In this document: one piece after another, positions 1 through 64,000 of the stretch
Numbering within the stretch: position 1 is the stretch's first letter
Layout of the letters: each line of letters starts with the position of its first letter
Source: Eledone cirrhosa
Taxonomy: Eukaryota
Assembly (NCBI GenBank): GCA_964016885.1
Contig: OZ024757.1
Span: forward strand, 42,904,001 to 42,968,000
DNA: 64,000 nt
Direction: 5' to 3'
The notes under the pieces: generated by a model
Database searches by the model: none
What the model was told of the DNA's origin: nothing
Seen by the model: only the letters and a program-made list of their open reading frames with translations
Translations under genes and position numbers: made by a program

Positions 1-1597
1 CGGTCCGGCGGCCTTGGCGCATGCGCACTACGTTCCGGCGGCCTTGGCGCATGCGCACTACGTTCCGGTGGCCTTTGCGCATGCGCAGTACGGTCCAGCG
101 GCCTTGGCGCATGCGCACAACGGTACGGCGGCCTTGGCGCATGCGCACTACGGCCCGGTGGCCTTGACGCATGCGCAATACTGTCCAGTGGCCTTGGGGC
201 ATGCGCACTACAGTCCAGTGGCCTTGGCGCATGCGTAATAAGGTCCGGCGGCCATGGCGCATGCGCACTAAGGGCCAGCGGTCTTTGCGCATGCGCACAA
301 CGGTACGGCGGCCTTGGCGCATGCGCACTACGTTCTGGTGGCCTTGACGCATGCGCAGTACTGTCCAGTGGCCTTGGCGCATGCGCAGTAAGGTCCGGCG
401 GCCTTAGCGCATGCGCAGTACGTTCCGGCGGCCTTGGCGCATGCTCACTAAGATGGCCATCGTTCTTTGCGCATGCGCACAACGGTCCGGCGGCCTTGGT
501 GCATGCGCACTACGGTCCGGCAGCCTTGGCGCATGCGCACTACGGTCCGCTGGCTTTGGTGCATGCGCACTACGGTCTAGCAGCATTGGGGCATGCGCAC
601 TACAACCCGGCGGCCTTGGCGCATGCGCAGTACGGCCCGGCGACCTTGGCGCATGCGCACTACGGTCTGGCGGCCTTGGCGCACGCGCACTACGGTCCGG
701 CGGTCTTGGCGCATGCGCACTACGGTCCGGCGACCTTGCCGCATGCGCACTACGTTCCGGTGGCCTTGGCACATGCGCAGATGGACCGTAGTGCGCATGC
801 GCCAAGGCCACCGGACCGTACTGCACATGCGCCAAGGACGCCGGACCGTAGTGCGCATGCGCCAAAGCCACCGGACCGTAGTGCGCATGCGACAATGCCG
901 CAGTACCGTAGTGCGCATGCGCCAAGGCCACATGACCGTAGTGCGCATGCGCCAAGGCTGCCGGACCGTAGTGCGCATGCGCCAAGGCCGCCGGATCGTA
1001 GTGCGCATGCGCCAAAGCCGCCGAACCGTAGTGCGCATGCGCCAAGGCCGCCGGACCGTAGTGCGCATGCGCCAAGGCCGCCTGACTGTACTGCGCATGC
1101 GTCAAGGTCCCAGTACCGAACTGCGCATGCGCTAAGGCCGCCGGACCGTACTGCGTATGCGCCAAGGCCGCCGGACCGCAGTGCGCATGCGCCAGAGCCG
1201 CCGAACCGTAGTGCGCCTGCGTCAAGGTCGCCGGACCATACTGCGCATGTGCCAAGCCCGCCGGACCGTAGTGCGCATGCGCTAAGGCCGCCGAACCGTA
1301 CTGCGCATGCGCCAAAGCAGCTGCACCGTAGTGCGCATGCGCCAAGGCCACCGGACGGTACTGCGCATGCACCAAGACCGCCGGATCGTACTGCGCATGC
1401 CCCAAGGCCGTCGGACCGTAGTGCGCATGTGCCAAGGCCGCCAGACCGTAGTGCGCATGCTCCAAGGCCGCCGGATCTTACTGCGCATGCCCCAAGGCCG
1501 TCGGATGGTAGTGCGCATGTGCCAAGGCCGCCAGACCGTAGTGCGCATGCCCCAAGGCCGCCGAACCGTACTGCGCATGCGCCAAGGCCGCCGGATC

Positions 1598-1617
1598 TTT
1601 GTGCGCATGCGGTTCGG
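1598..1617. other. Recurrent R-to-F inversion junction J1 (TTTGTGCGCATGC|GGTTCGG), first of 20 copies
   Basis: The same junction or its reverse complement (CCGAACC|GCATGCGCACAAA) occurs at ~1611, 6371, 8399, 11627, 14110, 16282, 18037, 20730, 22902, 25325, 27707, 30549, 32721, 41088, 43594, 45766, 48272, 50414, 51866, with a variant (GGTACGG) at 60154. Dyad-to-dyad spacing across it is 23 bp instead of 30. Confidence 0.9.
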
Positions 1618-4177
1618 TGGCCTTGGCGCATGCGCACTACTGTCCGGCGACCTTCCCGCATGCGCACTACGTTCCGGCGGCCTTGGCGCATGCGCACTAC
1701 GTTCCGGTGGCCTTGGCGCATGCGCAGTACTGTCCAGTGGCCTTGGCGCATGCGCAGTAAGGTCCGGCAGCCTTAGCGCATGCGCACTACGGTACAGTGG
1801 CCTTATCGCATGCGCAGTAAGGTCCGGCGGCCATGGCGCATGCGCACTAAGGGCCAGCGGTCTTTGCGCATGCGCACAACGGTCCGGCGGCCTTCGCGCC
1901 TGCGCACTACGGTCCGGCGGCTTTGGTGCATGCGCACTACGTTCCGGTGGCCTTGGCGCATGCGCAGTACTGTCCAGTGGCCTTGGCGCATGCGCAGTAA
2001 GGTCCGGCAGCCTTAGCGCATGCGCAGTACGTTCCGGCGGCCTTGGCGCATGCGCACGAAGGGCCATCGTTCTTTGCGCATGCGCACAACGGTCCGGCGG
2101 CCTTGGTGCATGCGCACTACGGTCCGGCGGCCTTGGCGCATGCGCACTACGGTCCGGCGGCTTTGGTGCATGCGCACTACGGTCTAGCAGCATTGGGGCA
2201 TGCGCACTACAGCCCGGCGGCCTTGGCGCATGCGCAGTACGGCCCGGCGACCTTGGCGCATGCGCCCTACGGTCTGGCGGCCTTGGCGCACGCGCACTAC
2301 GGTCCGGCGGTCTTGGCGCATGCGCACTACGGTCCGGCGACCTTGCCGCATGCGCACTACGTTCCGGTGGCCTTGGCACATGCGCAGTACGGTCCGGTGG
2401 CTTTGGCGCATGCGCACTACGGTCTGGCAGACTTGGCGCATGCGCACTACGGTCCGATGGCCTTGGCGCATGCGCACTACGTCCTGCTGGCCTTGGCGCC
2501 TGCACAGTACAGTCCAGTGGCCTTGGCGCATGCGCAGTAAGGCCCGGCGGCCTTAGCGCATGCGCAGTAAGGTCCGGCGGCCATGGCGCATGCGCACTAA
2601 GGGCCAGCGGTCTTTGCGCATGCGCACAATGGTACGGCGGCCTTGGCGCATGCGCACTACGTTCCGATGGCCTTGACGCATGCGCAGTACTGTCCAGTGG
2701 CCTTGGCGCATGCGCAGTAAGGTCCGGCGGCCTTAGCGCATGCGCAGTACGTTCCGGCGGCCTTGGCGCATGTGCACTAAGGGCCATCGTTCTTTGCGCA
2801 TGCGCACAACGGTCCGGCGGCCTTGGTGCATGCGCACTACGGTCCGGCGGCCTTGGCGCATGCGCACTACGGTCCGGCGGCTTTGGTGCATGCGCACTAC
2901 GGTCTAGCAGCATTGGAGCATGCACACTACAGCCCGGCGGCCTTGGCGCATGCGCAGTACGGCCCGGCGACCTTGGCGCATGCGCACTACGGTCTGGCGG
3001 CCTTGGCGCACGCGCACTACGGTCCGGCGGTCTTGGCGCATGCGCACTACGGTCCGGCGGCCTTGCCGCATGCGCACTACGTTCCGGTGGCCTTGGCACA
3101 TGCGCAGTACGGTCCGGTGGCTTTGGCGCATGCGCACTACGGTCTGGCAGACTTGAAGCATGCGCACTACGGTCCGATGGCCTTGGCGCATGCGCACTAC
3201 GTCCTGGTGGCCTTGGCGCATGCGCAGTACAGTCCAGTGGCCTTGGCGCATGCGCAGTGAGGTCCGGCGGCCTTAGCGCATGCGCAGTAAGGTCCGGCGG
3301 CCATGGCGCATGCGCACTAAGGGTCAGCGGTCTTTGCGCATGCGCACAACGGTACGGCGGCCTTGGCGCATGCACACTACGGCCCGGCGGCCTTGGCGCC
3401 TGCACACTACGGTCCGGCGGCTTTGGTGCATGCGCACTACGGTCCGGCGGCGCGCACTACGTTCCGGTGGCCTTGGCGCATGCGCAGTACGCTCCAGTGG
3501 CCTTGGCGCATGCGCAGTAAGGTCCGACGGCTTTGGCGCATGCGCACTATGGTCTTTCAGTTTTGGCGCATGCGCACTACGGTCCGGCGGCCTTCGCGCA
3601 TGCGCACTACGTTCCGGCGGCCTTGGCGCATGCGCACTACGTTCCGGTGGCCTTTGCGCATGCGCAGTACGGTCCAGCGGCCTTGGCGCATGCGCACAAC
3701 GGTACGGCGGCCTTGGCGCATGCGCACTACGTTCCGGTGGCCTTGGCGCATGCGCAGTACTGTCCAGTGGCCTTGGCGCATGTGCAGTAATGTCCGGCGG
3801 CCTTAGCGCATGCGCAGTACGTTCCGACGGCCTTGGCGCATGCGCACTAAGGGCCATCGTTCTTTGCGCATGCGCACAACGGTCCGGCGGCCTTGGTGCA
3901 TGCGCACTACGGTCCGGCGGCCTTAGCGCATGCGCAGTTCGGTACTGCGACCTTGACGCATGCGCAGTACAGTCAGGTGGCCTTGGCGCATGCGCACAAC
4001 GGTCCGGCGCCCTTGGCGCATGCGCAGTATGGTCCGACGGCCTTGGCGCATGTGCACTATGTATCGGCGGCCTTGGCGCATGCGCACTACGGTTAGGCGG
4101 CTTTGGCGCATGCGCACTACGATCAGGCCGTCTCGGCGCGTGCGCAGTACGGTCTGGCGGTCTTGGCGCATGGGCAC

Positions 4178-4443
4178 GTCATCAAAAAGGACTAACATGG
4201 CCGAAATGTCATCATGTATGTCTGAAATTACAACAAAATGGCTAAGACGGCATAATAAATGACTAAAGTGACAATAAAATGCTAAAACCGTATCATAATT
4301 GACTAGAATGACTCTAACACGACTGAAACGTCTAAAATGACTATAAATGGCTCTAAAATGGTTAAACTGCATCATAAATTTCTAAAATAACTCAAAATGG
4401 CTAAATATGGCAACATAAAGGCTTAAAATGGCTAAAAAGTCAT
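4178..4443 (-). repeat. AT-rich island, 266-bp class (A-rich strand on +), at an F-to-R switch
   Basis: Abrupt drop in GC; degenerate AAATGGCTAA/AAATGACTAA units; near-exact reverse complement of 34738-35003. Confidence 0.92.
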
Positions 4444-7400
4444 CCGGACCGTACTGCACATGCTTCAAGGACTTCGGACCGTCGTGCGCATGCGCCAAGG
4501 CCTCCGAACCGTAGTGCGCATGCGCCAACGCCGCCGGACCGTAGTGCGCATGCGCCAAGGCCGCCGGACCGTAGTGCGCATGCGCCAAGGCCGCCAGACC
4601 GTAGTGCACATGCGCCAAGGCCGCCGGGCCGTACTGCGCATGCGCCAAGGCCGCCGGACCGTAGTGCGCATGCGCCAATGCTGCCAGACCGTAGTGCGCA
4701 TGCACCAAAGCTGCCGGACCGTAGTGCGCATGCGCCAAGGCCGCCGGACCGTTGTGCGCATGCGCCAAGGCCACTGGACCGTAGTGCGCACGCGCCAATG
4801 CCATCGGACCGTAGTGCGCATGCGCCAAGTCTGCCAGACCGTAGTGCGAATGCGCTAAAGCCACCGGACCGTACTGCGCATGTGCCAAGGCCACCGGAAC
4901 GTAGTGCGCATGCGGCAAGGTCGCCGGACCGTAGTGCGCATGCGCCAATGCTGCCAGACCGTAGTGCGCATGCGCCAAGGCCGCCGTGCCGTAGTGTGCA
5001 TGCGCCAAGGCCGCCGGACCGTTGTGCGCATGCGCAAAGACCGCTGGCCCTTAGTGCGCATGCACCAAGGCCGCCGGACCGTTGTGCGCATGCGCAAAGA
5101 ACAATGGCCCTTAGTGCGCATGCGCCAAGGCCGCCGTAACGTACTGCGCATGCGCTCAGGCCGCCGGACCTTACTGCGCATGCGCCAAGGCCACTGGACA
5201 GTACTGCGCATGCGTCAAGGCCACCGGAAAGTAGTGCGCATGCGCCAAGGCCGCCGTACCGTTGTGCGCATGCGCAAAGACCGCTGGCCCTTAGTGCGCA
5301 TGCGCCATGGCCGCCGGACCTTACTGCGCATGCGCCAAGGCCACTGGACTGTACTGCGCATGCGCCAAGGCCACCAGGACGTAGTGCGCATGCGCCAAGG
5401 CCATCGGACCGTAGTGCGCATGCGCCAAGTCTGCCAGACCGTAGTGCGCATGCGCCAAAGCCACCGGACCGTACTGCGCATGTGCCAAGGCCACCGGAAC
5501 GTAGTGCGCATGCGGCAAGGTCGCCGGACCGTAGTGCGCATGCGCCAAGACCGCCGGACTGTAGTGCGCGTGCGCCAAGGCCGCCAGACCGTAGTGCGCA
5601 TGCGCCAAGGTCGCCGGGCCGTACTGCGCATGCGCCAAGGCCGCCGGGCTTTAGTGCGTATGCCCCAATGCTGCTAGACCGTAGTGCGTATGCACCAAAG
5701 CCGCCGGACCGTAGTGCGCATGCGCCAAGGCCGCCGGACCGTAGTGCGCATGCACCAAGGCCGCCGGACCGTTGTGCGCATGCGCAAAGAACGATGGCCC
5801 TTAGTGCGCATGCGCCAAGGCCGCCGGAACGTACTGCGCATGCGCTAAGGCTGTCGGACCTTACTGCGCATGCGCCAAGGCCACTGGACAGTACTGCGCA
5901 TGCGCCAAGGCCACCGGAACGTAGTGCGCATGCGCCAAGGCCGCCGTACCGTTGTGCGCATGCGCCAAGGCCGCTGGACCGTACTGCGCATGCGCAAAGG
6001 CCACCGGAACGTAGTGTGCATGCGCCAAGGCCGCCGGAACGTAGTCCGCATGCGCGAAGGCCGCCGGACCGTAGTGCGCATGCGCCAAGACTGACAGACC
6101 ATAGTGCGCATGCACCAAAGCCGCCGGACCTTACTGCGCATGCGCCAAGGCCACTGGAGCGTACTGCGCATGCGCCAAGGCCACCGGAACGTAGTGCGCA
6201 TGCGCCAAGGCCGCCGCACCGTAGTGCGCATGCGCCAAGGCTGCCAGACCGTAGTGCGCATGCGCCAAAGCCGCCGGACCGTACTGCGCATGTGCCAAGG
6301 CCACCGGAACGTAGTGCGCATGCGGGGAGGTCGCCGGACCGTAGTGCGCATGCGCCAAGGCCGCCGAACCGCATGCGCACAAAGGTCCGGTGGCCTTGGC
6401 GCATGCGCAGTACGGTTCGGCCGCCTTGGCGCATGCGCACTACGGTCCGGCGGCCTTAGCGCATGCGCAGTTCGGTACTGGGACCTTGACGCATGCGCAG
6501 TACAGTCAGTCGGTCTTGGCGCATGCACACTACGGTCCGGCGGCCTTGGCGCATGCGCAGTACGGTTCGGCGGCTTTGGCGCATGCGCACTACGGTCCGG
6601 CGGCCTTGGCACATGCGCAGTACGGTCCGGCGGCCTTAACGCATGCGCAGTTCGGTACTGCGACCTTGACGCATGCGCAGTACAGTCAGGCGGCCTTGGC
6701 GCACGCGCAGTACGGTCCGGCGGCTTTAGCGCATGCGCAGTTCGGTACTGCGACCTTGACGCATGCGCAGTACAGTCAGGTGGCCTTGGCGCATGCGCAC
6801 TACGGTCCGGCGTCTTTGGCGCATGCGCACTACGGTCCGGCGGCCCTGGCGCATGCGCAGTATGGTCCGGCGGCCTTGGCGCATGCGCACTACGGTTCGG
6901 CGGCTCTGGCGCATGCGCACTACGGTCCGGCGGTCTTGGTGCATGCGCAGTACGGTACTGGGACCTTGATGCATGCGCAGTACAGTCAGGCGGCCTTGGC
7001 GCATGCGCACTACGGTCCGGCGGCCTTGGCGCATGCGCAGTACGGTCCGGCGGCCTTAGCGCATGCGCAGTTCGGTACTGCGACCTTGACGCATGCGCAG
7101 TACAGTCAGGTGGCCTTGGCGCATGCGCAGTACGGTCCGGCGGCCTTAGCGCATGCGCAGTTCGGTACTGCGACCTTGACGCATGCGCAGTACAGTCAGG
7201 CGGCCTTGGCACATGCGCACTACGGTCCGGCGGCCTTGGCGCATGCGCAGTATGGTCCGACGGCCTTGGCGCATGTGCACTATGTATCGGCGGCCTTGGC
7301 GCATGCGCACTACGGTTCGGCGGCTTTGGCGCATGCGCACTACGGTTCGGCGGCTTTGGCGCATGCGCACTACGATCCGGCGGCCTTGGCGCATGCGCAC

Positions 7401-7852
7401 TACGGTCCGGCGGACTTGGCGCATGCGCACTACGGTCATATGGCCTTGGCGCATGCGCACTACGGTACTGCGGCCTTGTCGCATGCGCAGTACGGTACTG
7501 CGGACTTGGCGCATGCGCAGTACGGTCAGGCGGCTTTGGCCCATGCGCACTACGGTCCGGCGGGCTTGGCGCATGCGCAGTATGGTCCGGCGACCTTGAC
7601 GCATGCGCACTACGGTTCGGCGGCTCTGGCGCATGCGCACTGCGGTCCGGCGGCCTTGGCGCATGCGCAGTACGGTCCGGCGGCCTTAGCGCATGCGCAG
7701 TTCGGTACTGGGACCTTGACGCATGCGCAGTACAGTCAGGCGGCCTTGGCGCATGCGCACTACGGTCCGGCGGCCTTGGCGCATGCGCACTACGGTCCGG
7801 CGGCTTTGGCACATGCGCAGTACGGTCCGGCGGCCTTAACGCATGCGCAGTT

Positions 7853-10800
7853 CGGACCGTAGTGCGCATGCGCCAAGGCCGCCGGACCGTAGTGCGCATG
7901 CACCAAGGCCGCCGGACCGTTGTGCGCATGCGCAAAGAACGATGGCCCTTAGTGCGCATGCGCCAAGGCCGCCGGAACGTACTGCGCATGCGCTAAGGCT
8001 GCCGGACCTTACTGCGCATGCGCCAAGGCCACTGGACAGTACTGCGCATGCGCCAAGGCCACCGGAACGTAGTGCGCATGCACCAAAGCCGCCGGACCGT
8101 AGTGCGCAGGCGCCAAGGCCGCCGGACCGTTGTGCGCATGCGCAAAGACCGCTGGCCCTTAGTGCGCATGCGCCATGGCCGCCGGACCTTACTGCGCATG
8201 CGATAAGGCCACTGGACCGTAGTGCGCATGCGCTAAGGCTGCCGGACCTTACTGCGCATGCGCCAAGGCCACTGGACAGTACTGCGCATGCGCCAAGGCC
8301 ACCGGAACGTAGTGCGCATGCGCCAAGGCCGCCGGAACGTAGTGCGCATGCGGGAAGGTCGCCGGACAGTAGTGCGCATGCGCCAAGGCCACCGAACCGC
8401 ATGCGCACAAAGATCCGGCGGCCTTGGCGCATGCGCAGTACGGTTCGGCGGCCTTGGCGCATGCGCACTACGGTCTGGCGGCCTTGGCACATGCGCACTA
8501 CCATCCGACGGCCTTGGGGCATGCGCAGTAAGATCCGGCGGCCTTGGAGCATGCGCACTACGGTCTGGCGGCTTTGGCACATGCGCACTACGGTCCGACG
8601 GCCTTGGGGCATGCGCAGTACGATCCGGCGGTCTTGGTGCATGCGCAGTACCGTCCGGTGGCCTTGGCGCATGCGCACTACGGTGCAGCTGCTTTGGCGC
8701 ATGCGCAGTACGGTTCGGCGGCCTTAGCGCATGCGCACTACGGTCCGGCGGGCTTGGCACATGCGCAGTATGGTCCGGCGACCTTGACGCAGGCGCACTA
8801 CGGTTCGGCGGCTCTGGCGCATGCGCACTGCGGTCCGGCGGCCTTGGCGCATGCGCAGTACGGTCCGGCGGCCTTAGCGCATGCGCAGTTCGGTACTGCG
8901 ACCTTGACGCATGCGCAGTACAGTCAGGCGGCCTTGGCACATGCGCACTACGGTCCGGCGGCCTTGGCGCATGCGCAGTATGGTCCGACGGCCTTGGCGC
9001 ATGTGCACTATGTATCGGCGGCCTTGGCGCATGCGCACTACGGTTCGGCGGCTTTGGCGCATGCGCACTACGATCCGGCGGCCTTGGCGCATGCGCACTA
9101 CGGTCATATGGCCTTGGCGCATGCGCACTACGGTACTGCGGCCTTGTCGCATGCGCAGTACGGTACTGCGGACTTGGCGCATGCGCAGTACGGTCAGGCG
9201 GCTTTGGCCCATGCGCACTACGGTCCGGCGGGCTTGGCGCATGCGCAGTATGGTCCGGCGACCTTGACGCATGCGCACTACGGTTCGGCGGCTCTGGCGC
9301 ATACGCACTGCGGTCCGGCGGCCTTGGCGCATGCGCAGTACGGTCCGGCGGCCTTAGCGCATGCGCAGTTCGGTACTGGGACCTTGACGCATGCGCAGTA
9401 CAGTCAGGCGGCCTTGGCGCATGCGCACTACGGTCCGGCGGCCTTGGCGCATGCGCAGTACGGTCCGGCGGCCTTAACGCATGCGCAGTTCGGTACTGCG
9501 ACCTTGACGCATGCGCAGTACAGTCAGGCGGCCTTGGCGCATGCGCATTACGATCCGGCGGCCTTAGCGCATGCGCAGTTAAGTACTGCGACCTTGACGC
9601 ATGCGCAGTACAGTCAGGTGGCCTTGGCGCATGCGCACTACGGGCCCGCGTCTTTGGCGCATGCGCACTACGGTCCGGCAGCCTTGGCGCATGCGCAGTA
9701 TGGTCCGGCGGCCTTGGCGCATGAGCACTACGGTTCGGCGGCTCTGGCGCATGCGCACTACGGTCCGGCGGTCTTGGTGCATGCGCAGTACGGTACTGGG
9801 ACTTTGATGCATGCGCAGTACAGTCAGGCGGCCTTGGCGCATGCGCACTACGGTCCGGCGGTCTTGGCGCATGCGCAGTACGGTGCGCAAAGAACGATGG
9901 CCCTTAGTGCGCATGCGCCAAGGCCGCCGGAACGTACTGCGCTAGCGCTAAGGCCGCCGGACCTTACTGCGCATGCGCCAAGGCCACTGGACAGTACTGC
10001 GCATGCGTCAAGGCCACCGGAACGTAGTGCGCATGCGCCAAGGTTGCCGTACCATTGTGCGCATGCGCAAAGACCGCTGGCCCTTAGTGCGCATGCGCCA
10101 TGGCCGCCGGACCTTACTGCGCATGCGCTAAGGCCACTGGGCCTTACTGCGCATGCGCCAAGGCCACTGGACTGTATTGTGCAGGCGCCAAGGCCAGCAG
10201 GACGTAGTGCGCATGCGCCAAGGCCATCGGACCGTAGTGCGCATGCGCCAAGTCTTCCAGACCGTAGTGCGCATGCGCCAAAGCCACCGGACCGTACTGC
10301 GCATGTGCCAAGGCCACCGGAACGTAGTGCGCATGCGGCAAGGTCGCCGGACCGTAGTGCGCATGCGCCAAGACCGCCGGACCGTGGTGCGCGTGCGCCA
10401 AGGCCGCCAGACCGTAGTGCGCATGCGCCAAGGTCGCCGGGCCGTACTGCGCATGCGCCAAGGCCGCCGGGCTGTAGTGCGCATGCCCCAATGCTGCTAG
10501 ACCGTAGTGCGCATGCACCAAAGCCGCCGGACCGTAGTGCGCATGCGCCAAGGCTGCCGGACCGTAGTGCGCATGCACCAAGGCCGCCGGACCGTTGTGC
10601 GCATGCGCCAGAGCCGCCGAACCGTAGTGCGCATGCGTCAAGGTCCCAGTACCGAACTGCGCATGCGCTAAGGCCGCCGGACCGTACTGCGCATGCGCCA
10701 AGGCCGCCGGACCGCAGTGCGCATGCGCCAGAGCCGCCGAACCGTAGTGCGCATGCGTCAAGGTCGCCGGACCATACTGCGCATGCGCCAAGCCCGCCGG

Positions 10801-12172
10801 ACCGTAGTGCGCATGGGCCAAAGCCGCCTGACCGTACTGCGCATGCGCCAAGTCCGCAGTACCGTACTGCGCATGCGACAAGGCCGCAGTACCGTAGTGC
10901 GCATGCGCCAAGGCCATATGACCGTAGTGCGCATGCGCCAAGGCCGCCGGATCGTAGTGCGCATGCGCCAAAGCCGCCGAACCGTAGTGCGCATGCGCCA
11001 AGGCCGCCGATACATAGTGCACATGCGCCAAGGCCGTCGGACCATACTGCGCATGCGCCAAGGCCGCCGGACCGTAGTGAGCATGTGCCAAGGCCGCCTG
11101 ACTGTACTGCGCATGCGTCAAGGTCGCAGTACCGAACTGCGCATGCGCTAAGGCCGCCGGACCGTACTGCGCATGCGCCAAGGCCGCCGGACCGCAGTGC
11201 GCATGCGCCAGAGCCGCCGAACCGTAGTGCGCCTGCGTCAAGGTCGCCGGACCATACTACGCATGTGCCAAGCCCGCCGGACCGTAGTGCGCATGCGCTA
11301 AGGCCGCCGAACCGTACTGCGCATGCGCCAAAGCAGCTGCACCGTAGTGCGCATGCGCCAAGGCCACCGGACGGTACTGCGCATGCACCAAGACCGCCGG
11401 ATCGTACTGCGCATGCCCCAAGGCCGTCGGACCGTAGTGCGCATGTGCCAAAGCCGCCAGACCGTAGTGCGCATGCTCCAAGGCCGCCGGATCTTACTGC
11501 GCATGCCCCAAGGCCGTCGGATGGTAGTGCGCTTGTGCCAAGGCCGCCAGACCGTAGTGCGCATGCGCCAAGGCCGCCGAACCGTACTGCGCATGCGCCA
11601 AGGCCGCCGGATCTTTGTGCGCATGCGGTTCGGTGGCCTTGGCGCATGCGCACTACTGTCCGGCGACCTTCCCGCATGCGCACTACGTTCCGGCGGCCTT
11701 GGCGCATGCGCACTACGTTCCGGTGGCCTTGGCGCATGCGCAGTACTGTCCAGTGGCCTTGGCGCATGCGCAGTAAGGTCCGGCAGCCTTAGCGCATGCG
11801 CACTACGGTCCAGTGGCCTTATCGCATGCGCAGTAAGGTCCGGCGGCCATGGCGCATGCGCACTAAGGGCCAGCGGTCTTTGCGCATGCGCACAACGGTC
11901 CGGCGGCCTTGGCGCCTGCGCACTACGGTCCGGCGGCTTTGGTGCATGCGCACTACGTTCCGGTGGCCTTGGCGCATGCGCAGTACTGTCCAGTGGCCTT
12001 GGCGCATGCGCAGTAAGGTCCGGCAGCCTTAGCGCATGCGCAGTACGTTCCGGCGGCCTTGGCGCATGCGCACTAAGGGCCATCGTTCTTTGCGCATGCG
12101 CACAACGGTCCGGCGGCCTTGGTGCATGCGCACTACGGTCCGGCGGCCTTGGCGCATGCGCACTACGGTCCG
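7853..12172. repeat. Inverted duplication: arms ~7853-9397 and ~10628-12172, spacer ~1.2 kb
   Basis: Variant monomer order is mirrored. ORF-track pairs 7993..8229(-)/11796..12032(+) and 8874..9332(-)/10693..11151(+) share coordinate sum 20025. J1 at 8399 mirrors J1 at 11627. Confidence 0.8.
9875..9900. other. Recurrent F-to-R inversion junction J2 (GCAGTACGG|TGCGCAAAGAACGATGG), first of 5 copies
   Basis: Present at ~9884, 42260 and 47268, and as reverse complement at ~29047 and 39181. Dyad-to-dyad spacing is 42 bp (60 minus an 18-bp deletion ending at the palindrome axis). Confidence 0.87.
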
Positions 12173-13340
12173 GCGGCTTTGGTGCATGCGCACTACGGTC
12201 TAGCAGCATTGGGGCATGCGCACTACAGCCCGGCGGCCTTGGCGCATGCGCAGTACGGCCCGGCGACCTTGGCGCATGCGCACTACGGTCTGGCGGCCTT
12301 GGCGCACGCGCACTACGGTCCGGCGGTCTTGGCGCATGCGCACTACGGTCCGGCGACCTTGCCGCATGCGCACTACGTTCCGGTGGCCTTGGCACATGCG
12401 CAGTACGGTCCGGTGGCTTTGGCGCATGCGCACTACGGTCTGGCAGACTTGGCGCATGCGCACTACGGTCCGATGGCCTTGGCGCATGCGCACTACGGTC
12501 CGGCGGCCTTGGCGCATGCGCACTACGTTCCGGTGGCCTTTGCGCATGCGCAGTACGGTCCAGTGGCCTTGGCGCATGCGCAGTAAGGTCCGGCGGCTTT
12601 GGCGCATGCGCACTATGGTCTGTCAGTCTTGGCGCATGCGCACTACGGTCCGGCGGCCTTGGCGCAGGCGCACTACGTTCCGGCGGCCTTGGCGCATGCG
12701 CACTACGTTCCGGTGGCCTTTGCGCATGCGCAGTACGGTCCAGCGGCCTTGGCGCATGCGCACAACGGTACGGCGGCCTTGGCGCATGCGCACTACGTTC
12801 CGGTGGCCTTGACGCATGCGCAGTACTGTCCAGTGGCCTTGGGGCATGCGCACTACAGTCCAGTGGCCTTGGCGCATGCGCAGTAAGGTCCGGCGGCCAT
12901 GGCGCATGCGCACTAAGGGCCAGCGGTCTTTGCGCATGCGCACAACGGTCCGGCGGCCTTGGCGCATGCGCACTACGTTCTGGTGGCCTTGACGCATGCG
13001 CAGTACTGTCCAGTGGCCTTGGCGCATGCGCAGTAAGGTCCGGCGGCCTTAGCGCATGCGCAGTACGTTCCGGCGGCCTTGGCGCATGCGCACTAAGGGC
13101 CATCGTTCTTTGCGCATGCGCACAACGGTCCGGCGGCCTTGGTGCATGCGCACTACGGTCCGGCAGCCTTGGCGCATGCGCACTACGGTCCGGTGGATTT
13201 GGTGCATGCGCACTACGGTCTAGCAGCATTGGGGCATGCGCACTACAGCCCAGCTGCCTTGGCGCATGCGCAGTACGGCCCGGCGACCTTGGCGCATGCG
13301 CACTACGGTCTGGCGGCCTTGGCGCATGCGCAGTACAGTC

Positions 13341-13572
13341 CATATTTAGCCATTTTGAGTTATTTTAGTAATTTATGATGCAGTTTAACCATTTTAGAGC
13401 CATTTATAGTCATTTTAGACGTTTCAGTCGTGTTAGAGTCATTCTAGTCAATTATGATACGGTTTTAGCATTTTATTGTCACTTTAGTCATTTATTATGC
13501 CGTCTTAGCCATTTTGTTGTAATTTCAGACATACATGATGACATTTCGGCCATGTTAGTCCTTTTTGATGAC
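13341..13572 (+). repeat. AT-rich island, 232-bp class, at an F-to-R switch
   Basis: CATATTTAGCCATTTTGAG...CTTTTTGATGAC; equals the 266-bp class minus its first 34 bp. Confidence 0.92.
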
Positions 13573-15388
13573 GTGCCCATGCGCCAAGACCGCCAGACCT
13601 TACTGCGCACGCGCCGAGACGGCGTGATCGTAGTGCGCATGCGCCAAAGCCGCCTAACCGTAGTGCGCATGCGCCAAGGCCGCCGATACATAGTGCACAT
13701 GCGCCAAGGCCGTCGGACTATACTGCGCATGTGCCAAGGGCGCCGGACCGTTGTGCGCATGCGCCAAGGCCGCTGGACCGTACTGCGCATGCGCAAAGGC
13801 CACCGGAACGTAGTGCGCATGCGCCAAGGCCGCCGGACCGTAGTGCGCATGCGCCAAGACTGACAGACCATAGTGCGCATGCGCCAAAGCCGCCGGACCT
13901 TACTGCGCATGCGCCAAGGCCACTGGAGCGTACTGCGCATGCGCCAAGGCCAGCGGAACGTAGTGCGCATGCGCCAAGGCCGCCGGACCGTAGTGCGCAT
14001 GCGCCAAGGCTGCCAGACCGTAGTGCGCATGCGCCAAAGCCGCCGGAACGTAGTGCGCATGCGGGAAGGTCGCCGGACCGTAGTGCGCATGCGCCAAGGC
14101 CGCCGAACCGCATGCGCACAAAGGTCCGGCGGCCTTGGCGCATGCGCAGTACGGTTCGGCGGCCTTGGCGCATGCGCACTACGGTCTGGCGGCCTTGGCA
14201 CATGCGCACTACGGTCCGACGGCCTTGGGGCATGCGCAGTAAGATCCGGCGGTCTTGGAGCATGCGCACTACGGTCTGGCGGCCTTGGCGCATGCGCACT
14301 ACGGTCTGGCAGCCTTGGCGCATGCGCACTACGGTCCGGCGCCCTTGGCGCATGCGCACTACTTTCCGGTGGCCTTGGCGCATGCGCAGTACGCTCCAGT
14401 GGCCTTGGCGCATGCGCAGTAAGGTCCGGCGGCTTTGGCGCATGCGCACTATGGTCTGTCAGTCTTGGCGCATGCGCACTACGGTCCGGCGGCCTTGGCG
14501 CATGCGCACTACGTTCCGGCGGCCTTGGCGCATGCGCACTACGTTCCGGTGGCCTTTGCGCATGCGCAGTACGGTCCAGCGGCCTTGGCGCATGCGCACA
14601 ACGGTACGGCGGCCTTGGCGCATGCGCACTACGGCCCGGTGGCCTTGACGCATGCGCAGTACTGTCCAGTGGCCTTGGGGCATGCGCACTACAGTCCAGT
14701 GGCCTTGGCGCATGCGCAGTAAGGTCCGGCGGCCATGGCGCATGCGCACTAAGGGCCAGCGGTCTTTGCGCATGCGCACAACGGTACGGCGGCCTTGGCG
14801 CATGCGCACTACGTTCTGGTGGCCTTGACGCATGCGCAGTACTGTCCAGTGGCCTTGGCGCATGCGCAGTAAGGTCCGGCGGCCTTAGCGCATGCGCAGT
14901 ACGTTCCGGCGGCCTTGGCGCATGCTCACTAAGATGTCCATCGTTCTTTGCGCATGCGCACAACGGTCCGGCGGCCTTGGTGCATGCGCACTACGGTCCG
15001 GCAGCCTTGGCGCATGCGCACTACGGTCCGGTGGCTTTGGTGCATGCGCACTACGGTCTAGCAGCATTGGGGCATGCGCACTACAGCCCGGCGGCCTTGG
15101 CGCATGCGCAGTACGGCCCGGCGACCTTGGCTCATGCGCACTACGGTCTGGCGGCCTTGGCGCACGCGCACTACGGTCCGGCGGTCTTGGCGCATGCGCA
15201 CTACGGTCCGGCGACCTTGCCGCATGCGCACTACGTTCCGGTGGCCTTGGCACATGCGCAGTACGGTTCGGTGGCTTTGGCGCATGCGCACTACGGTCTG
15301 GCAGACTTGGCGCATGCGCACTACGGTCCGATGGCCTTGGCGCATGCGCACTACGTCCTGGTGGACTTGGCGCATGCGCAGTACAGTC

Positions 15389-15443
15389 CATATTTAGCCA
15401 TTTTGAGTTATTTTAGTAATTTATGATGCAGTTTAACCATTTT
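15389..15443 (+). repeat. AT-rich island, 55-bp class, at an F-to-R switch
   Basis: CATATTTAGCCATTTTGAGTTATTTTAGTAATTTATGATGCAGTTTAACCATTTT; same left breakpoint as the 232-bp class. Confidence 0.92.
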
Positions 15444-29600: not shown

Positions 29601-31827
29601 CGCCAAGGCCGCCGGACCGCAGTGCGCATGCGCCAGAGCCGCCGAACCGTAGTGCGCATGCGTCAAGGTCGCCGGACCATACTGCGCATGCGCCAAGCCC
29701 GCCGGACCGTAGTGCGCATGGGCCAAAGCCGCCTGACCGTACTGCGCATGCGCCAAGTCCGCAGTACCGTACTGCGCATGCACCAAGACCGCCGGACCGT
29801 AGTGCGCATGCGCCAGAGCCGCCGAACCGTAGTGCGCATGCGCCAAGGCCGCCGGAACGTACTGCGCATGCGCTAAGGCCGCCGGACCTTACTGCGCATG
29901 CGCCAAGGCCACTGGACAGTACTGCGCATGCGTCAAGGCCACCAGAACGTAGTGCGCATGCGCCAAGGCCGCCGTACCGTTGTGCGCATGCGCAAAGACC
30001 GCTGGCCCTTAGTGCGCATGCGCCATGGCCGCCGGACCTTACTGCGCATGCGCCAAGGCCACCGGACTGTAGTGCGCATGCCCCAAGGCCACTGGACAGT
30101 ACTGCGCATGCGTCAAGGCCACCGGAACGTAGTGCGCATGCGCCAAGGCCGCCGTACCGTTGTGCGCATGCGCCAAGGCCGCTGGACCGTACTGCGCATG
30201 CGCAAAGGCCACCGGAACGTAGTGCGCATGCGCCAAGGCCGCCGGAACGTAGTGCGCATGCGCCAAGGCCGCCGGACCGTAGTGCGCATGCGCCAAGACT
30301 GACAGACCATAGTGCGCATGCGCCAAAGCCGCCGGACCTTACTGCGCATGCGCCAAGGCCACTGGAGCGTACTGCGCATGCGCCAAGGCCACCGGAACGT
30401 AGTGCGCATGCGCCAAGGCCGCCGGACCGTAGTGCGCATGCGCCAAGGCTGCCAGACCGTAGTGCGCATGCGCCAAAGCCGCCGGAACGTAGTGCGCATG
30501 CGGGAAGGTCGCCGGACCGTAGTGCGCATGCGCCAAGGCCGCCGAACCGCATGCGCACAAAGGTCCGGCGGCCTTGGCGCATGCGCAGTACGGTTCGGCG
30601 GCCTTGGCGCATGCGCACTACGGTCTGGCGGCCTTGGCACATGCGCACTACGGTCCGACGGCCTTGGGGCATGCGCAGTAAGATCCGGCGGTCTTGGAGC
30701 ATGCGCACTACGGTCTGGCGGCCTTGGCGCATGCGCACTACGGTCTGGCAGCCTTGGCGCATGCGCACTACGGTCCGGCGCCCTTGGCGCATGCGCACTA
30801 CTTTCCGGTGGCCTTGGCGCATGCGCAGTACGCTCCAGTGGCCTTGGCGCATGCGCAGTAAGGTCCGGCGGCTTTGGCGCATGCGCACTATGGTCTGTCA
30901 GTCTTGGCGCATGCGCACTACGGTCCGGCGGCCTTGGCGCATGCGCACTACGTTCCGGCGGCCTTGGCGCATGCGCACTACGTTCCGGTGGCCTTTGCGC
31001 ATGCGCAGTACGGTCCAGCGGCCTTGGCGCATGCGCACAACGGTACGGCGGCCTTGGCGCATGCGCACTACGGCCCGGTGGCCTTGACGCATGCGCAGTA
31101 CTGTCCAGTGGCCTTGGGGCATGCGCACTACAGTCCAGTGGCCTTGGCGCATGCGCAGTAAGGTCCGGCGGCCATGGCGCATGCGCACTAAGGGCCAGCG
31201 GTCTTTGCGCATGCGCACAACGGTACGGCGGCCTTGGCGCATGCGCACTACGTTCTGGTGGCCTTGACGCATGCGCAGTACTGTCCAGTGGCCTTGGCGC
31301 ATGCGCAGTAAGGTCCGGCGGCCTTAGCGCATGCGCAGTACGTTCCGGCGGCCTTGGCGCATGCTCACTAAGATGGCCATCGTTCTTTGCGCATGCGCAC
31401 AACGGTCCGGCGGCCTTGGTGCATGCGCACTACGGTCCGGCAGCCTTGGCGCATGCGCACTACGGTCCGGTGGCTTTGGTGCATGCGCACTACGGTCTAG
31501 CAGCATTGGGGCATGCGCACTACAGCCCGGCGGCCTTGGCGCATGCGCAGTACGGCCCGGCGACCTTGGCGCATGCGCACTACGGTCTGGCGGCCTTGGC
31601 GCACGCGCACTACGGTCCGGCGGTCTTGGCGCATGCGCACTACGGTCCGGCGACCTTGCCGCATGCGCACTACGTTCCGGTGGCCTTGGCACAGGCGCAG
31701 TACGGTTCGGTGGCTTTGGCGCATGCGCACTACGGTCTGGCAGACTTGGCGCATGCGCACTACGGTCCGATGGCCTTGGCGCATGCGCACTACGTCCTGG
31801 TGGACTTGGCGCATGCGCAGTACAGTC

Positions 31828-31882
31828 CATATTTAGCCATTTTGAGTTATTTTAGTAATTTATGATGCAGTTTAACCATTTT
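31828..31882 (+). repeat. AT-rich island, 55-bp class
   Basis: Copy of 15389-15443. Confidence 0.92.
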
Positions 31883-34737: not shown

Positions 34738-35003
34738 ATGACTTTTTAGCCATTTTAAGCCTTTATGTTGCCATATTTAGCCATTTTGAGTTATTTTAGA
34801 AATTTATGATGCAGTTTAACCATTTTAGAGCCATTTATAGTCATTTTAGACGTTTCAGTCGTGTTAGAGTCATTCTAGTCAATTATGATACGGTTTTAGC
34901 ATTTTATTGTCACTTTAGGCATTTATTATGCCGTCTTAGCCATTTTGTTGTAATTTCAGACATACATGATGACATTTCGGCCATGTTAGTCCTTTTTGAT
35001 GAC
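34738..35003 (+). repeat. AT-rich island, 266-bp class
   Basis: ATGACTTTTTAGCCATTTTAAGCC...CTTTTTGATGAC at an F-to-R switch. Confidence 0.92.
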
Positions 35004-55570: not shown

Positions 55571-55600
55571 TGCGCACTACGGTCCGGCGGCCTTGGCGCA
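55571..55600 (+). other. Single inverted 30-bp monomer bounded by two palindrome axes inside an R block
   Basis: ...GTACTGCGCA|TGCGCACTACGGTCCGGCGGCCTTGGCGCA|TGCGCTAAGGCC...; no bases gained or lost. Confidence 0.9.
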
Positions 55601-57438: not shown

Positions 57439-58017
57439 ATGACTTTTTAGCCATTTTAAGCCTTTATGTTGCCATATTTAGCCATTTTTGAGTCATTTTA
57501 GTAATTTATGATGCAGTTTTTACCATTTTAGAGCCATTTATAGTCATTTTAGACGTTTCAGTCGTGTTAGAGTCATTCTAGTCAATTATGATACGGTTTT
57601 AGCATTTTAGTCGTTGATGATGACGTTTTAGTCATTTATGATGCAGATTCAGCCATTCTGTTGTAATATGGCAACATAAATGATTAAATGGCCCTAAAAT
57701 GGCTAAAACAGCATCATATTTGACAAAAGTGACTCGTAAATGAGTAAAACGGTATCATAAATGACTAAAATAACTCTAGAAAGGCTACTACAGCATCATA
57801 AATGATTAAAATGACTCTAAAACGACTAAAACGTCTAAAATGACAAAAATGGCTTTAATATAGCTTAAACTGCATCTTAAATGACTAAAACTACTAAAAT
57901 GACTCCGAAATGGCTAAAATGACACTAAAGTGGCTAAAACGGACTGTTAAATTGCTAAATTGTCTCTAAAATGGCTAAAACGTCTTCATAAATAAATAAA
58001 ATGGCTAAAACGTGGGT
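57439..58017. repeat. Long AT-rich island (579 bp), internally an imperfect inverted repeat of degenerate ~10-bp units
   Basis: T-rich left arm and A-rich right arm switch near 57663. 57543-57577 matches the reverse complement of 57810-57844 at 33/35; 57463-57478 is the exact reverse complement of 57665-57680. Confidence 0.9.
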
Positions 58018-61089: not shown

Positions 61090-61690
61090 ATGACTTTTTG
61101 GCCATTTTAAGCCTTTATGTTGCCATATTTAGCCATTTTTGAGTCATTTTAGTAATTTATGATGCAGTTTTTACCATTTTAGAGCCATTTATAGTCATTT
61201 TAGACGTTTCAGTCGTGTTAGAGTCATTCTAGTCAATTATGATACGGTTTTAGCATTTTAGTCGTTGATGATGACGTTTTAGTCATTTATGATGCAGTTT
61301 CAGCCATTCTGTTGTAATATGGCAACATAAATGATTAAATGGCCCTAAAATGGCTAAAACAGCATCATATTTGACAAAAATGACTCGTAAATGAGTAAAA
61401 CGGTATCGTAAATGACTAAAATAACTCTAGAAAGGCTACTACAACATCATAAATGATTAAAATGACTCTAAAACGACTAAAACGTCTAAAATGACAAAAA
61501 TGGCTTTAATATAGCTTAAACTGCATCTTAAATGACTAAAACTACTAAGATGACTCCGAAATGGCTAAAAAAAACATCATAAATGGCTAAAATGACACTA
61601 AAGTGGCTAAAACGGACTGTTAAATTGCTAAATTGTCTCTAAAATGGCTAAAACGTCTTCATAAATAAATAAAATGGCTAAAACGTGGGT
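61090..61690. repeat. Long AT-rich island (601 bp), second copy
   Basis: Near-identical to 57439-58017 with 22 extra bp near 61571-61592, lying between two AAATGGCTAAAA direct repeats. Confidence 0.9.
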
Positions 61691-64000
61691 GCCGGACCGT
61701 AGTGCGCATGCGCCAAGGCCGCCGGACCGTAATGCGCATGCGCCAAGGCCGCCGGACCGTAGTGCGCATGCGCCAAGACCGACTGACTGTACTGCGCATG
61801 TGTCATCGTCGCAGTACCGCACTGCGCATGCGGTAAGGCCGCCGGACCGTACTGCGCATGCGCCAAGGCCGCCGGACCGTAGTGCGCAGGCGCCAAGGCC
61901 GCCAGACCGTAGTGCGCATGCACCAAGGCCGCCTGAGTGTACTGCGCATGCATCAAGGTCCCAGTACCGCACTGCGCATGCGCAAAGGCCGCCGGACAGT
62001 AGTGCGCATGCGCCAGAGCCGCCGAACCGTAGTGCGCATGCGCCAAGGCCGCCGGACCGTAGTGCGCATGGGCCAAAGCCGCCCGACCGTACTGCGCATG
62101 CGCTAAGTCCGTAGTACCGTACTGCGCATGCTACAAGGCCGCAGTACCGTACTGCGCATGCGACAAGGCCGCAGTACCGTAGTGCGCATGCGCCAAGGCC
62201 ACCGGACCGTAGTGCGCATGAGCCAAGGCCGCCGGACCGTACTGCGCATGCGCCAAGCCCGCCGGACCGTAGTGCGCATGCGCCAGAGCCGCCGAACCGT
62301 GTTGCACATGCGCCAAGCCCGCCGGACCGTAGTGCGCATGCGCCAAGGCCGCCGGACCATACACCGCATGCGCCAAGGCCGCCGGACCATACTCCGCATG
62401 CGCCAAGGCCGCCGGACCGTTGTGCGCATGCGCCAAGGCCGCCTGACGACTGCGCATGCGTCAAGGTCGCAATACCGAACTGCGCATGCGCTAAGGCCGG
62501 CGGACCGTAGTGCGCATTCGCCAAGGCCGCCGGACCGTAGTGCGCATTCGCCAAGGCCGCCGGACCGTAGTGCGCATGCGCCAAGGCCGCCGGACCGTAG
62601 TGCGCATGCGCCAAGGCCGCCTAACTGTACTGCGCATGCGTCAAGGTCGCAGTACCGAACTGCGCATGCGCTAAGGCCGCCGGACCGTACTGCGCATGCG
62701 CCAAGGCCGCCGGACCGTAGTGCGCATGCGCCAAAGCCGCCGAACCGTAGTGCGCATGCGCCAAGGTCGCCGGACCTGACTGCGCATGCGCCGCGGCCGC
62801 CGGACCGTACTGCGCATGCCCCAAGGCCGTCTGGTTGTACTGCGCATGCCCCAAGGCTGCCTGGTTGTACTGCTAATGCCCCAAGGCCGCCCGACCGTAG
62901 TGCGCATGCGACAAGGCCGCCTGACCGTAGTGCGCATGCGCCAAGGCCGCCGGACCGTAGTGCGCATGCGTCAAGGTCGCAGTACCGAACTGCGCATGCG
63001 CTAAGGCCGCCGGACCGAACTGCGTATGGGCTAAGGCCGCCGGACCGTACTGCGCATGCGCCAAAGCCGCCGGACCGTAGTGCGCATGCGTCAAGGTCGC
63101 AGTACCGAACTGCGCATGCGCTAAGGCCGCCGGACCGTACTGCGCATGCGCCAAGGCCGCCGGACCGTACTGCGCATACCCCAAGGCCGCCTGGTTGTAC
63201 TGCGCATGCCCCAAGGCCGCCCGACCGTAGTGCGCATGCGCCAAAGCCGCCGAACCGTAGTGCGCATGCGCCAAGGCCGCCTAACTGTACTGCGCATGCG
63301 TCAAGGTCGCAGTACCGAACTGCGCATGCGCCAAGGCCGCCGGACCGTACTGCGAATGCGCCAAGGCCGCCGGACCGTAGTGCGCATGCGCCAAAGCCGC
63401 CGAACCGTAGTGCGCATGCGCCAAGGCCGCCGGACCATACTGCGCACGCATGCGCCGCGGCCGCAGGACCGTAGTGCGCATGCGCCAAGGCCGCCTGGTT
63501 GTACTGCGCATGCGCCAAGGCCGCCGGACCGTAGTGCGCATGCGCCAAGGCCGCCTGACTGTACTGCGCATGCGTCAAGGCCGCAGTACCGAACTGCGTA
63601 TGGGCTAAGGCCGCCGGACCGTACTGCGCATGCGCCAAGGCCGCCGGACCGTAGTGCGCATGCGCCAAGGCCGCCGGACCATACTGCGCATGCGCCAAGG
63701 CCGCCGGACCGTAGTGCGCATGCGCCAAGGCCGCCTAACTGTACTGCGCATGCGTCAAGGTCGCAGTACCGTACTGCGCATGCGCCAAGGCCGCCGAACC
63801 GTACTGCGCATGCGCCAAGGCCGCCGAACCGTACTGCGCATGCGCCAAGGCCGCCGAACCGTACTGCGCATGCGCCAAAGCCGCCGAACCGTAGTGCGCA
63901 TGCGCCAAAGCCGCTGGACCGTAGTGCGCATGCGCCAAGGCCACTGGACCGTACTGCGCATGTACCAAGGCCGCCGTCGTAGTGCGCATGCGCCAAGGCC

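What the first reader, a model, noticed from the sequence alone, without database searches (positions are those of the whole stretch)
1..64000. Self-inverting satellite: ~49 strand switches in 64 kb with a strict two-class junction pattern
Seen: the 30-bp array flips orientation about every 1.3 kb on average. R-to-F switches are nearly all one junction (J1, 20 of 24). F-to-R switches are AT-rich islands (15 of 25), junction J2 (5) or one-offs (5). Known: most satellites run head-to-tail over long distances; frequent inversions are reported in some arrays (e.g. Tribolium beetle satellites) but are uncommon. Inference: the amplified unit is not the 30-mer but a kilobase-scale foldback module (island - R array - J1 - F array) that is copied, truncated and re-inverted, producing a chain of macro-palindromes able to form hairpins or cruciforms. 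This is the best candidate here for an undescribed system.
Basis: partly seen in the sequence, partly recalled or inferred. Interest (0 to 1): 0.85.

Follow-up and report, generated by a model that had tools for sequence, protein, structure and literature searches.

The report
Two-satellite array of amplified fold-backs
This is part of a single 668-kb repeat block in which a 30-base repeat flips direction about every 1.5 kb at a handful of shared junctions, most likely because two old fold-back accidents were copied and re-inverted many times; a similar layout was described in flour beetles, and nothing yet shows that it has a function.

Summary
The window lies inside one gap-free 668-kb array ending 567 kb from a TTAGGG telomere. 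The array has 438 switches; 148 of the 219 of one polarity are J1, found in both orientations. The islands are nested deletions of a ~1.47-kb fold-back of a dispersed AT-rich minisatellite, intact only at the older array ends. Junctions occur in short-read data from other samples. The arms are not true mirrors (81% identity, background 79%). Best reading: two founding fold-backs, then tandem duplication and short inverted copying. Inversion cannot change a junction's polarity, so the two-class pattern follows from descent. It works like the Tribolium macro-dyad satellites (PMC13081366, PMC12581902) but sits at one locus and is denser, so it is not an undescribed system. The monomer core is the NRF1 consensus, and the array holds 12,725 of 24,766 genomic copies. 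Look-ups in the scan's notes returned no report of this architecture.

The parts
1..64000 (.). Interior of a 668,178-bp single-locus array (G000:C18:42,695,929-43,364,106) of a 30-bp GC-rich monomer on alternating strands. 19,713 full monomers, mean pairwise identity 0.83, each with a palindromic GCGCATGCGC core (1,302 perfect cores in the window).
1598..1617 (+). Junction J1, first copy. It reads as a strand switch at the palindromic core plus a 7-bp loss, leaving a ~13-nt loop. Same orientation also at 11627, 16282, 18037, 22902, 27707, 32721, 41088, 45766, 50414 and 60154 (11 copies).
14103..14122 (-). Junction J1 in the opposite orientation; also at 6371, 8399, 20730, 25325, 30549, 43594, 48272 and 51866 (9 copies). 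Bridged by a short-read contig of run X1.
34738..35003 (+). 266-bp AT island = positions 1-267 of the full 1,469-bp island (97%). Also at 36968-37233, and inverted at 4178-4443. Both borders are seen in raw reads of another sample (X9); one border in a contig under another species label (X4).
13342..13572 (+). 231-bp AT island = positions 36-267 of the full island; also at 19962-20192 and 24557-24787.
15390..15443 (+). 54-bp AT island = positions 36-90 of the full island. Also at 22010, 26605 and 31829, and inverted at 44432, 49080 and 52674.
57439..58017 (+). 579-bp AT island (positions 1-218 and 806-1026 of the full island, two-armed). The related 601-bp island is at 61090-61690.
29030..29060 (.). 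Junction J2, a direct switch without an island; also at 9883, 39179, 42259 and 47267. 24 copies in the array, 12 in each orientation.
55576..55595 (.). 20-bp micro-inversion between two adjacent palindromic cores (seamless switch out and back); about a dozen copies in the array.
28822..33419 (+). 4,598-bp block (J2, arm, J1, arm, 54-bp island, arm, J1) whose near-identical inverted copy lies at 42895-47492.
1..12252 (+). Right part of a 16,770-bp direct tandem duplication (offset 20,542).

Best explanation
The window is the interior of a single 668-kb array in which a 30-bp satellite alternates strand at a few shared junctions, most likely because an ancestral ~3-kb module with two fold-backs (one in an AT-rich minisatellite, one at J1 in the 30-mer) was amplified and re-inverted by homologous copying. 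Step 1 (inferred): each repeat folded back once by a template switch at its own short dyads, giving [AT arm, centre, inverted AT arm][F arm, J1, R arm]. This module survives at both array ends (shown). Step 2 (shown as duplications; mechanism inferred as unequal exchange or rolling-circle copying): modules were duplicated in tandem, in blocks up to 61 kb. Step 3 (products shown): rare deletions cut the 1.47-kb island to 601/579, 266, 231 and 54 bp, or gave island-free joints such as J2, and each new junction was amplified in turn. Step 4 (products shown; mechanism inferred): blocks of one or two modules (under 9 kb) were copied in inverted orientation by strand switching between oppositely oriented arms, which makes no new junction. 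A junction keeps its polarity class when reverse-complemented, so the two-class pattern follows from descent and needs no site-specific enzyme or selection.
For: All island classes tested align to one 1,469-bp island as nested pieces at 87-99% identity. Islands over 1.1 kb lie only within ~22 kb of the left end and ~9 kb of the right end. These ends have 28-62% unique 60-mers against mostly 0-6% inside, so the ends are old and the interior young. The full islands share one centre, a short inverted repeat with a spacer. J1 copies share flanks whose conservation decays from 0.97/0.96 at the junction to 0.75/0.81 at 270 bp; the innermost bins are partly set by the motif used for selection. Six identical 240-bp J1 haplotypes (47 copies) occur in both orientations. 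A tree of 79 J1 rows needs 16 orientation changes, at least 10 forced by well-supported branches. 540 of 580 ends of long inverted blocks lie inside arms, and for 491 of 580 the spanning 60-mer exists elsewhere, so no new junction was made. The AT repeat folds back elsewhere too: 7 of 14 dispersed loci have abutting switches (24 in 117 kb), and one locus 0.8 Mb away has 16 switches with repeated junctions. Precedents: inversion junctions at pre-existing 2-14-bp interrupted inverted repeats and inverted dimeric circles (ODIRA, PMC10766183, passages); frequent inversion and deletion in rolling-circle amplicons (PMC3147054 abstract; PMC6007334 passages); template switches inside inverted repeats (PMC11293582 abstract).
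Against: Simple in-place flips with a surviving parent were not found: 0 of 695 inverted pairs and 0 of 1,488 under relaxed settings, with 62 matching on one side only. The same test recovered 8 of 8 planted flips. So step 4 is not plain local inversion, or the parents were overwritten. The two arms of the AT island are only ~68-75% alike and its two borders with the 30-mer differ, so the module is not a simple mirror dimer and its origin is not resolved. The 579/601-island domain shows almost no re-inversion (all 32 islands of 472-602 bp in one orientation), which is unexplained. The founding events cannot be observed, and flank recombination makes the J1 tree approximate.
Confidence: 0.68

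Rival explanations
1. The dyad layout, or the NRF1-type core, is kept by selection: the array is a functional landmark (the C18 centromere, a hairpin scaffold, or a binding platform for the NRF1/EWG/P3A2 homologue), as proposed for Tribolium macro-dyads.
For: J1-centred strands fold about twice as stably as pure arm. Core G/C positions vary at 0.077 against 0.178 for other G/C positions among 1,457 distinct monomers (P=4e-4, positions not independent). Core CpGs are hit at 0.14-0.21 against 0.31-0.37 outside. GCGCATGCGC is the NRF1 consensus (PMC10810270, passages), the array holds 12,725 of 24,766 genomic copies, and the genome has an NRF1-domain gene. Junctions are shared with other samples and with a run under another species label.
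Against: The array is at one locus only (22,458 of 22,477 two-core matches), unlike a general centromeric repeat. Interior islands of 54-266 bp have lost the dyad. There is no mirror identity or length symmetry. The most variable positions sit in CC/GG runs, so sequence-context mutation could explain the core. The right half of the core (positions 18-19) varies nearly as much as the spacer.
Confidence: 0.13
2. The founding fold-backs are scars of RNA-mediated insertion (Penelope-like or LINE twin priming) of the AT minisatellite, not replication template switches. Later amplification is as in the best explanation.
For: Dispersed AT-repeat loci often carry a short inverted end. A 170-bp piece of the 30-mer, 98.8% identical to the array, sits on C6 in a TA tract at the end of an inverted LINE-like insertion. 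Unchecked scan notes report Penelope-type inverted ends in this genome.
Against: No Rfam family in 30 kb covering both array ends. No poly(A) or (GAT)n tail seen by eye at the AT-repeat ends shown. Switch points fall at short dyads of the repeat itself. Target-site duplications were not tested systematically.
Confidence: 0.12
3. The module is a tandemly amplified foldback DNA transposon (Tetris, Rehavkus or FB type) whose long inverted termini are made of tandem repeats.
For: Foldback elements carry satellites in inverted termini and can seed arrays of up to 80 kb (PMC12581902, passages). The terminal islands at the two array ends are inverted relative to each other.
Against: There are no dispersed composite copies: 1,276 of 1,277 exact monomer matches are in this array, and the other is a 170-bp orphan. 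The 14 dispersed AT loci lack the 30-mer. The left end abuts a 41-bp satellite and the right end fades into diverged AT repeat.
Confidence: 0.05
4. Assembly or library artefact (fold-back chimeras).
For: No raw long reads could be examined, so long-range order and copy number are unverified. Run X1 may be the assembly's own sample.
Against: There are few junction types in many diverged copies, nested deletions and an age gradient. J1 is bridged by an X1 contig (35 and 43 bases on either side, depth 135). Arm-to-island joints appear as loose ends in 85 and 32 raw reads of sample S6. Both borders of the 266-bp island are covered at about 370-390 and 690 depth in raw reads of sample S7, and one by a 331-bp contig of organism B.
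Confidence: 0.02

Closest known systems
Tribolium freemani TfSat01/TfSat03 and T. madens TmSat1/TmSat2 macro-dyad symmetries (PMC12581902: passages and section 6 read; PMC13081366: passages read)
   Same: Two intermingled repeats. The major one forms oppositely oriented subarrays with conserved inversion sites; the minor one forms a fold-back cassette with a conserved centre; the transition zones are conserved.
   Different: One locus here, against putative (peri)centromeres of nearly all chromosomes. Arms have a median of 1.1 kb, against TfSat01 arrays with a median of 11.8 kb and dyads up to 75 kb. The monomer is 30 bp and GC-rich. The minor cassette is eroded to 54-601-bp fragments inside the array. 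No arm-length symmetry. The host is a 3-Gb genome with TTAGGG telomeres. PMC13081366 states that such symmetries were documented only in Tribolium.
Inverted amplicons: ODIRA (PMC10766183, passages), double rolling-circle amplicons (PMC3147054 abstract; PMC6007334 passages), DUP-TRP/INV-DUP (PMC11293582 abstract)
   Same: Junctions at short interrupted inverted repeats, two fixed junction types in alternation, and later inversions and deletions by homologous exchange between repeats.
   Different: Those are selected or disease amplicons of unique DNA with near-perfect mirror arms. Here the arms are satellite at ~81% identity, shared among samples, and no replication origin or circle has been shown.
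Cichlid centromeres with inverted 'centroids' (PMC13652916, abstract only)
   Same: Satellite blocks in alternating orientation, separated by a second, non-satellite element.
   Different: Four blocks and two ~15-kb elements per centromere, against 438 switches here. Centromere status is untested here.
Human subtelomeric 29-bp TERRA-promoter repeats bound by NRF1 (PMC6600276, passages)
   Same: A short CpG-rich tandem repeat near a chromosome end with NRF1 sites in every unit.
   Different: Those lie next to the telomere and act as promoters. This array is 668 kb long, ends 567 kb from the telomere and alternates strand; binding and transcription are untested.
Foldback transposons Rehavkus and Tetris (as described in PMC12581902, passages)
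   Same: Tandem repeats arranged in long inverted arms.
   Different: No dispersed composite copies here; target-site duplications and a transposase were not tested.

Membership tests
Tribolium-type macro-dyad satellite region | Two different repeats alternating in intermingled arrays | tested here: met
   30-bp GC satellite and AT minisatellite islands; 163 islands between arms
Tribolium-type macro-dyad satellite region | Major satellite in inverted subarrays with conserved inversion sites | tested here: met
   J1 at 148 of 219 switches of its class
Tribolium-type macro-dyad satellite region | Minor repeat forms a dyad cassette with a conserved centre and conserved transitions | tested here: inconclusive
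   Met for the full-length terminal islands; interior islands of 54-266 bp are single-arm fragments
Tribolium-type macro-dyad satellite region | Tendency to symmetry of the two arms | tested here: not met
   Arm lengths uncorrelated (rho 0.03, n=147; 25 of 147 within about 20%); no mirror identity. Median arm lengths are similar (1,210 and 1,150).
Tribolium-type macro-dyad satellite region | Present on (nearly) all chromosomes | tested here: not met
   22,458 of 22,477 two-core matches and 122 of 122 J1 matches at one locus
Tribolium-type macro-dyad satellite region | Putative (peri)centromeric position | not testable with these tools
   No CENP-A, methylation or FISH data; the array ends 567 kb from the telomere of a 43.9-Mb contig
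ODIRA-type inverted amplicon | Junctions at short interrupted inverted repeats within ~100 bp | tested here: met
   The island centre has a 5-bp inverted repeat with an 8-nt spacer; J1 folds with a ~13-nt loop
ODIRA-type inverted amplicon | Mirror-identical arms around the junction | tested here: not met
   0 of 135 J1 sites reach 0.95 mirror identity; one young fold-back with 726-bp arms and a 26-bp gap exists near C18:42.809 Mb
ODIRA-type inverted amplicon | Replication origin inside the unit; extrachromosomal inverted dimer | not testable with these tools
   no data
Foldback DNA transposon (Rehavkus/Tetris/FB) | Dispersed copies of the composite element | tested here: not met
Foldback DNA transposon (Rehavkus/Tetris/FB) | Terminal inverted repeats with a target-site duplication; cognate transposase | not tested
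   Ends inspected by eye only; no transposase search was run
NRF1-bound tandem repeat | NRF1 consensus in the unit and an NRF1 gene in the genome | tested here: met
NRF1-bound tandem repeat | Binding in vivo; unmethylated sites | not testable with these tools
   no ChIP or methylation data; CpG o/e 1.20 in the array

The most novel reading that the evidence does not exclude
The array is a convergent, non-insect case of a macro-dyad satellite that is kept for what it does: a chromosome-specific landmark (centromere or nuclear anchor) built from hairpin-prone inverted arms, whose monomer is an NRF1/EWG site. It would hold about half of the genome's perfect sites in 0.02% of the DNA and could titrate or cluster that factor.
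Probability: 0.13. Interest if true: 0.8.

Novelty: new variant of a known kind. Interest (0 to 1): 0.45.

Why it matters
The Tribolium papers read conserved inversion sites as a hint of centromeric function, while allowing that they may only reflect how the repeats spread. Here the same layout is assembled end to end at one locus in an unrelated animal, and its history can be read: old ends with the intact module, nested deletions and repeated re-inversion. That shows that conserved junctions and a two-class pattern can arise by descent alone, and it gives a null model against which functional claims can be tested. It is also a natural record of inverted homologous copying at kilobase scale. 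If NRF1 binds the array, it would be a large satellite sink for a conserved transcription factor.

Tried and rejected
True mirror palindromes: rejected. In-place flips with a surviving parent: not found, 0 of 695 and 0 of 1,488 pairs; the pairs are not independent, and the positive control recovered 8 of 8. A single global inversion as the source of both J1 orientations: rejected by the tree (16 changes). Recent long inversions: none over 8.6 kb. Other arrays of the 30-mer: none. RNA genes or ribozymes at the array ends: 0 Rfam hits in 30 kb. Expression: no RNA holder listed, which says nothing either way. Runs X5 and X6 hold only monomer-like pieces and no junction. J1 itself was not shown bridged in X4, X6 or X8; only X1, possibly the source sample, bridges it. 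The ungapped pairwise identities and clusters printed were out of register between orientations and are not used; they were redone. The tree used an alignment and stands. The BLAST-based age profile timed out and was replaced by 60-mer counts. Island orientation labels printed are unreliable for two-armed islands; orientations are taken. Flank ORFs look like LINE fragments and low-complexity DNA by recalled motifs; they were not scanned against families. Paper searches for a prior description of this repeat or of such arrays in cephalopods listed none, but subscription journals, Dfam and Repbase were not available. Supplements were not read. The host taxon was not tested.
Full report
Observation. 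The window is almost wholly a 30-bp, 67% GC satellite. A Viterbi annotation with forward, reverse and background states gives 49 switches. The 25 R>F switches are 15 islands, 5 J2 and 5 others. This matches the finding exactly.

Extent. The window is G000:C18:42,904,001-42,968,000 in a 3.0-Gb assembly. I fetched 854 kb around it. The array runs from 42,695,929 to 43,364,106 (668 kb) without N and ends 567 kb from a TTAGGG tract at the contig end. It holds 1,276 of 1,277 exact 27-mer matches, all 122 exact J1 matches and 22,458 of 22,477 two-core matches in the genome, so it is a single-locus satellite. The flanking repeats look octopus-like from recall and from an unchecked scan note; I did not test the taxon.

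Junction census. The array has 438 switches, one per 1.53 kb, with a median arm of 1.1 kb. All 219 F>R switches are direct; 160 of 219 R>F switches carry an island. J1 accounts for 148 of 219 (86 in one orientation, 62 in the other) and J2 for 24 (12 and 12). The rest fall into a few amplified classes and about ten singletons. Seamless switches at the palindromic core account for 18 F>R and 14 R>F, most of them a 20-bp micro-inversion. An F>R junction stays F>R when reverse-complemented, so homologous duplication or inversion cannot move a junction between classes. Whatever junction founded each class stays in it. This is a logical consequence of the geometry, and it explains the two-class pattern without a dedicated mechanism.

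Islands. Every island class tested is a piece of one 1,469-bp island: 266 bp = positions 1-267, 231 = 36-267, 54 = 36-90, 579 = 1-218 plus 806-1026, and 601 = 1-218 plus 806-1117. The 17-bp and 269-bp classes gave no hit at the threshold used. The full island is itself a fold-back of an irregular ~10-bp-unit AT minisatellite, with arms ~68-75% alike and one shared centre. Islands over 1.1 kb occur only at the two array ends, in opposite orientation. The ends have 28-62% unique 60-mers against mostly 0-6% in the interior. The ancestral module is thus a ~3-kb double fold-back, preserved in old terminal layers, and the window shows its young derivatives.

The AT repeat elsewhere. A 32-base motif matches 1,048 places on at least nine contigs. 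Of 14 loci fetched, 7 have abutting strand switches, 24 in 117 kb, often at short dyads of the repeat. One locus at C18:41.88 Mb has 16 switches with repeated junction sequences, a small independent version of the same process. The 41-bp satellite directly left of the array has 177 marker copies on one strand and none inverted, so inversion is not a property of every local repeat.

How the array grew. Exact 100-mer chains give direct duplications of up to 60.8 kb and inverted copies of up to 4.8 kb. Allowing indels, these become 62 kb and 8.6 kb. Six identical 240-bp J1 haplotypes occur in both orientations. The J1 tree needs 16 orientation changes, at least 10 forced by strong branches, against 26 for shuffled labels, so re-inversion was recurrent. 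Inverted blocks end inside arms (540 of 580), mostly at sequence found elsewhere (491 of 580). They are not simple in-place flips next to a surviving parent: 0 of 1,488 pairs match on both flanks and 62 on one, while 8 of 8 planted flips were recovered. Out-and-back template switching or conversion from an inverted donor fits best; this is inferred. One domain (472-602-bp islands) has hardly re-inverted, which I cannot explain.

Palindromes and hairpins. Across 135 J1 sites, mirror-register identity is 0.806, shifted registers give 0.806-0.815, random arms 0.788, and none reaches 0.95. Arm lengths are uncorrelated. Only one young near-perfect fold-back (726-bp arms, 26-bp gap) exists in the array. 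Single strands across J1 are still predicted to fold strongly (-144 against -78 kcal/mol for 25 300-mers each), with a ~13-nt loop in the example shown. Hairpins on exposed single strands are plausible. Long cruciforms from duplex DNA are doubtful, because extrusion generally needs a near-perfect centre (recalled knowledge).

Reality. One run search listed six holders in three studies, none on record as RNA. J1 is bridged by an X1 contig, which may be from the source sample. Arm-to-island joints appear in raw reads of another sample (85 and 32 reads). Both borders of the 266-bp island are covered by hundreds of raw reads of a third sample, and the derived border by a 331-bp contig with 2 differences under another species label. 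The junctions are real and shared; long-range order was not checked with long reads.

Monomer. The core GCGCATGCGC is the consensus of NRF1, whose homologues include Drosophila EWG and sea-urchin P3A2 (PMC10810270, passages). The array has 12,725 perfect copies of 24,766 in the genome, and an NRF1-domain gene lies on C15. Core G/C positions vary less than other G/C positions among 1,457 distinct monomers (0.077 against 0.178). Protein binding could explain this, but so could context-dependent mutation, since the variable positions lie in CC/GG runs. Human 29-bp subtelomeric repeats are a precedent for NRF1-bound tandem repeats (PMC6600276, passages).

Comparison. In T. freemani, major-satellite arrays with inverted subarrays alternate with ~4-kb dyad cassettes of a minor satellite that have a 97%-conserved centre (PMC12581902, section 6 and passages). 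[quoted passage not shown] This array works like those, but it fails two membership features (all chromosomes, arm symmetry) and is several times denser. Cichlid centromeres have four alternating blocks (PMC13652916, abstract). Mechanistic precedents are ODIRA and rolling-circle amplicons. Six literature searches listed no description of this repeat; the library is partial and repeat databases were not available.

Verdict. The feature is real and unusual, and descent from two fold-backs explains it best (0.68). It is a new variant of a known architecture, not a new system. Function is untested; the NRF1-site load and the centromere question are the open upside. Interest 0.45.

Noticed in passing
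G000:C6:31,463,598-31,465,290 (L091): A 170-bp piece of the 30-mer (98.8% to the array) precedes an inverted duplicate of a LINE-like 3' end. Of 55 mismatches between the two arms, 51 fit A-to-G on the + strand of either arm (34 G/A, 17 T/C; 1 each in the opposite direction). This looks like an A-to-I hyper-edited hairpin RNA that was reverse-transcribed into a TA tract, or RNA-read polishing of the assembly. The satellite piece itself is not edited. One paper search gave no close precedent.
   Followed up: partly
G000:C18:41,881,500-41,911,200 (L096-L099): A 29-kb array of the AT minisatellite alone, with 16 strand switches and repeated junction sequences: a small independent version of the same process.
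   Followed up: partly
G000:C20:36,788,500-36,796,000 (L101): A third, AT-rich satellite changes orientation across a fold-back insert of the AT minisatellite, and also once without an insert.
   Followed up: partly
G000:C18:42,685,749-42,694,558 (L013-L014): An 8.8-kb head-to-tail 41-bp satellite abuts the left end of the array; 177 markers on one strand and none inverted.
   Followed up: partly
G000:C18:43,144,436-43,277,477: A 61-kb near-exact direct duplication (offset 72,213), and a second ~52-kb one at offset ~145 kb. These are very young duplications or assembly haplotype duplication; not checked with reads.
   Followed up: no
G000:C18:42,808,806-42,810,283: The only near-perfect local palindrome in the array: 726-bp arms with a 26-bp gap, a young fold-back.
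   Followed up: partly
G000:C13:36,894,510-36,894,570 (L093): The AT-repeat insert ends in a 20-bp perfect inverted duplication, like a templated repair scar.
   Followed up: no
G000:C15:1,724,281-1,726,713 (L112, L113): Five exon-sized matches to the NRF1 DNA-binding domain (PF10491), all over the family cut-off.
   Followed up: no
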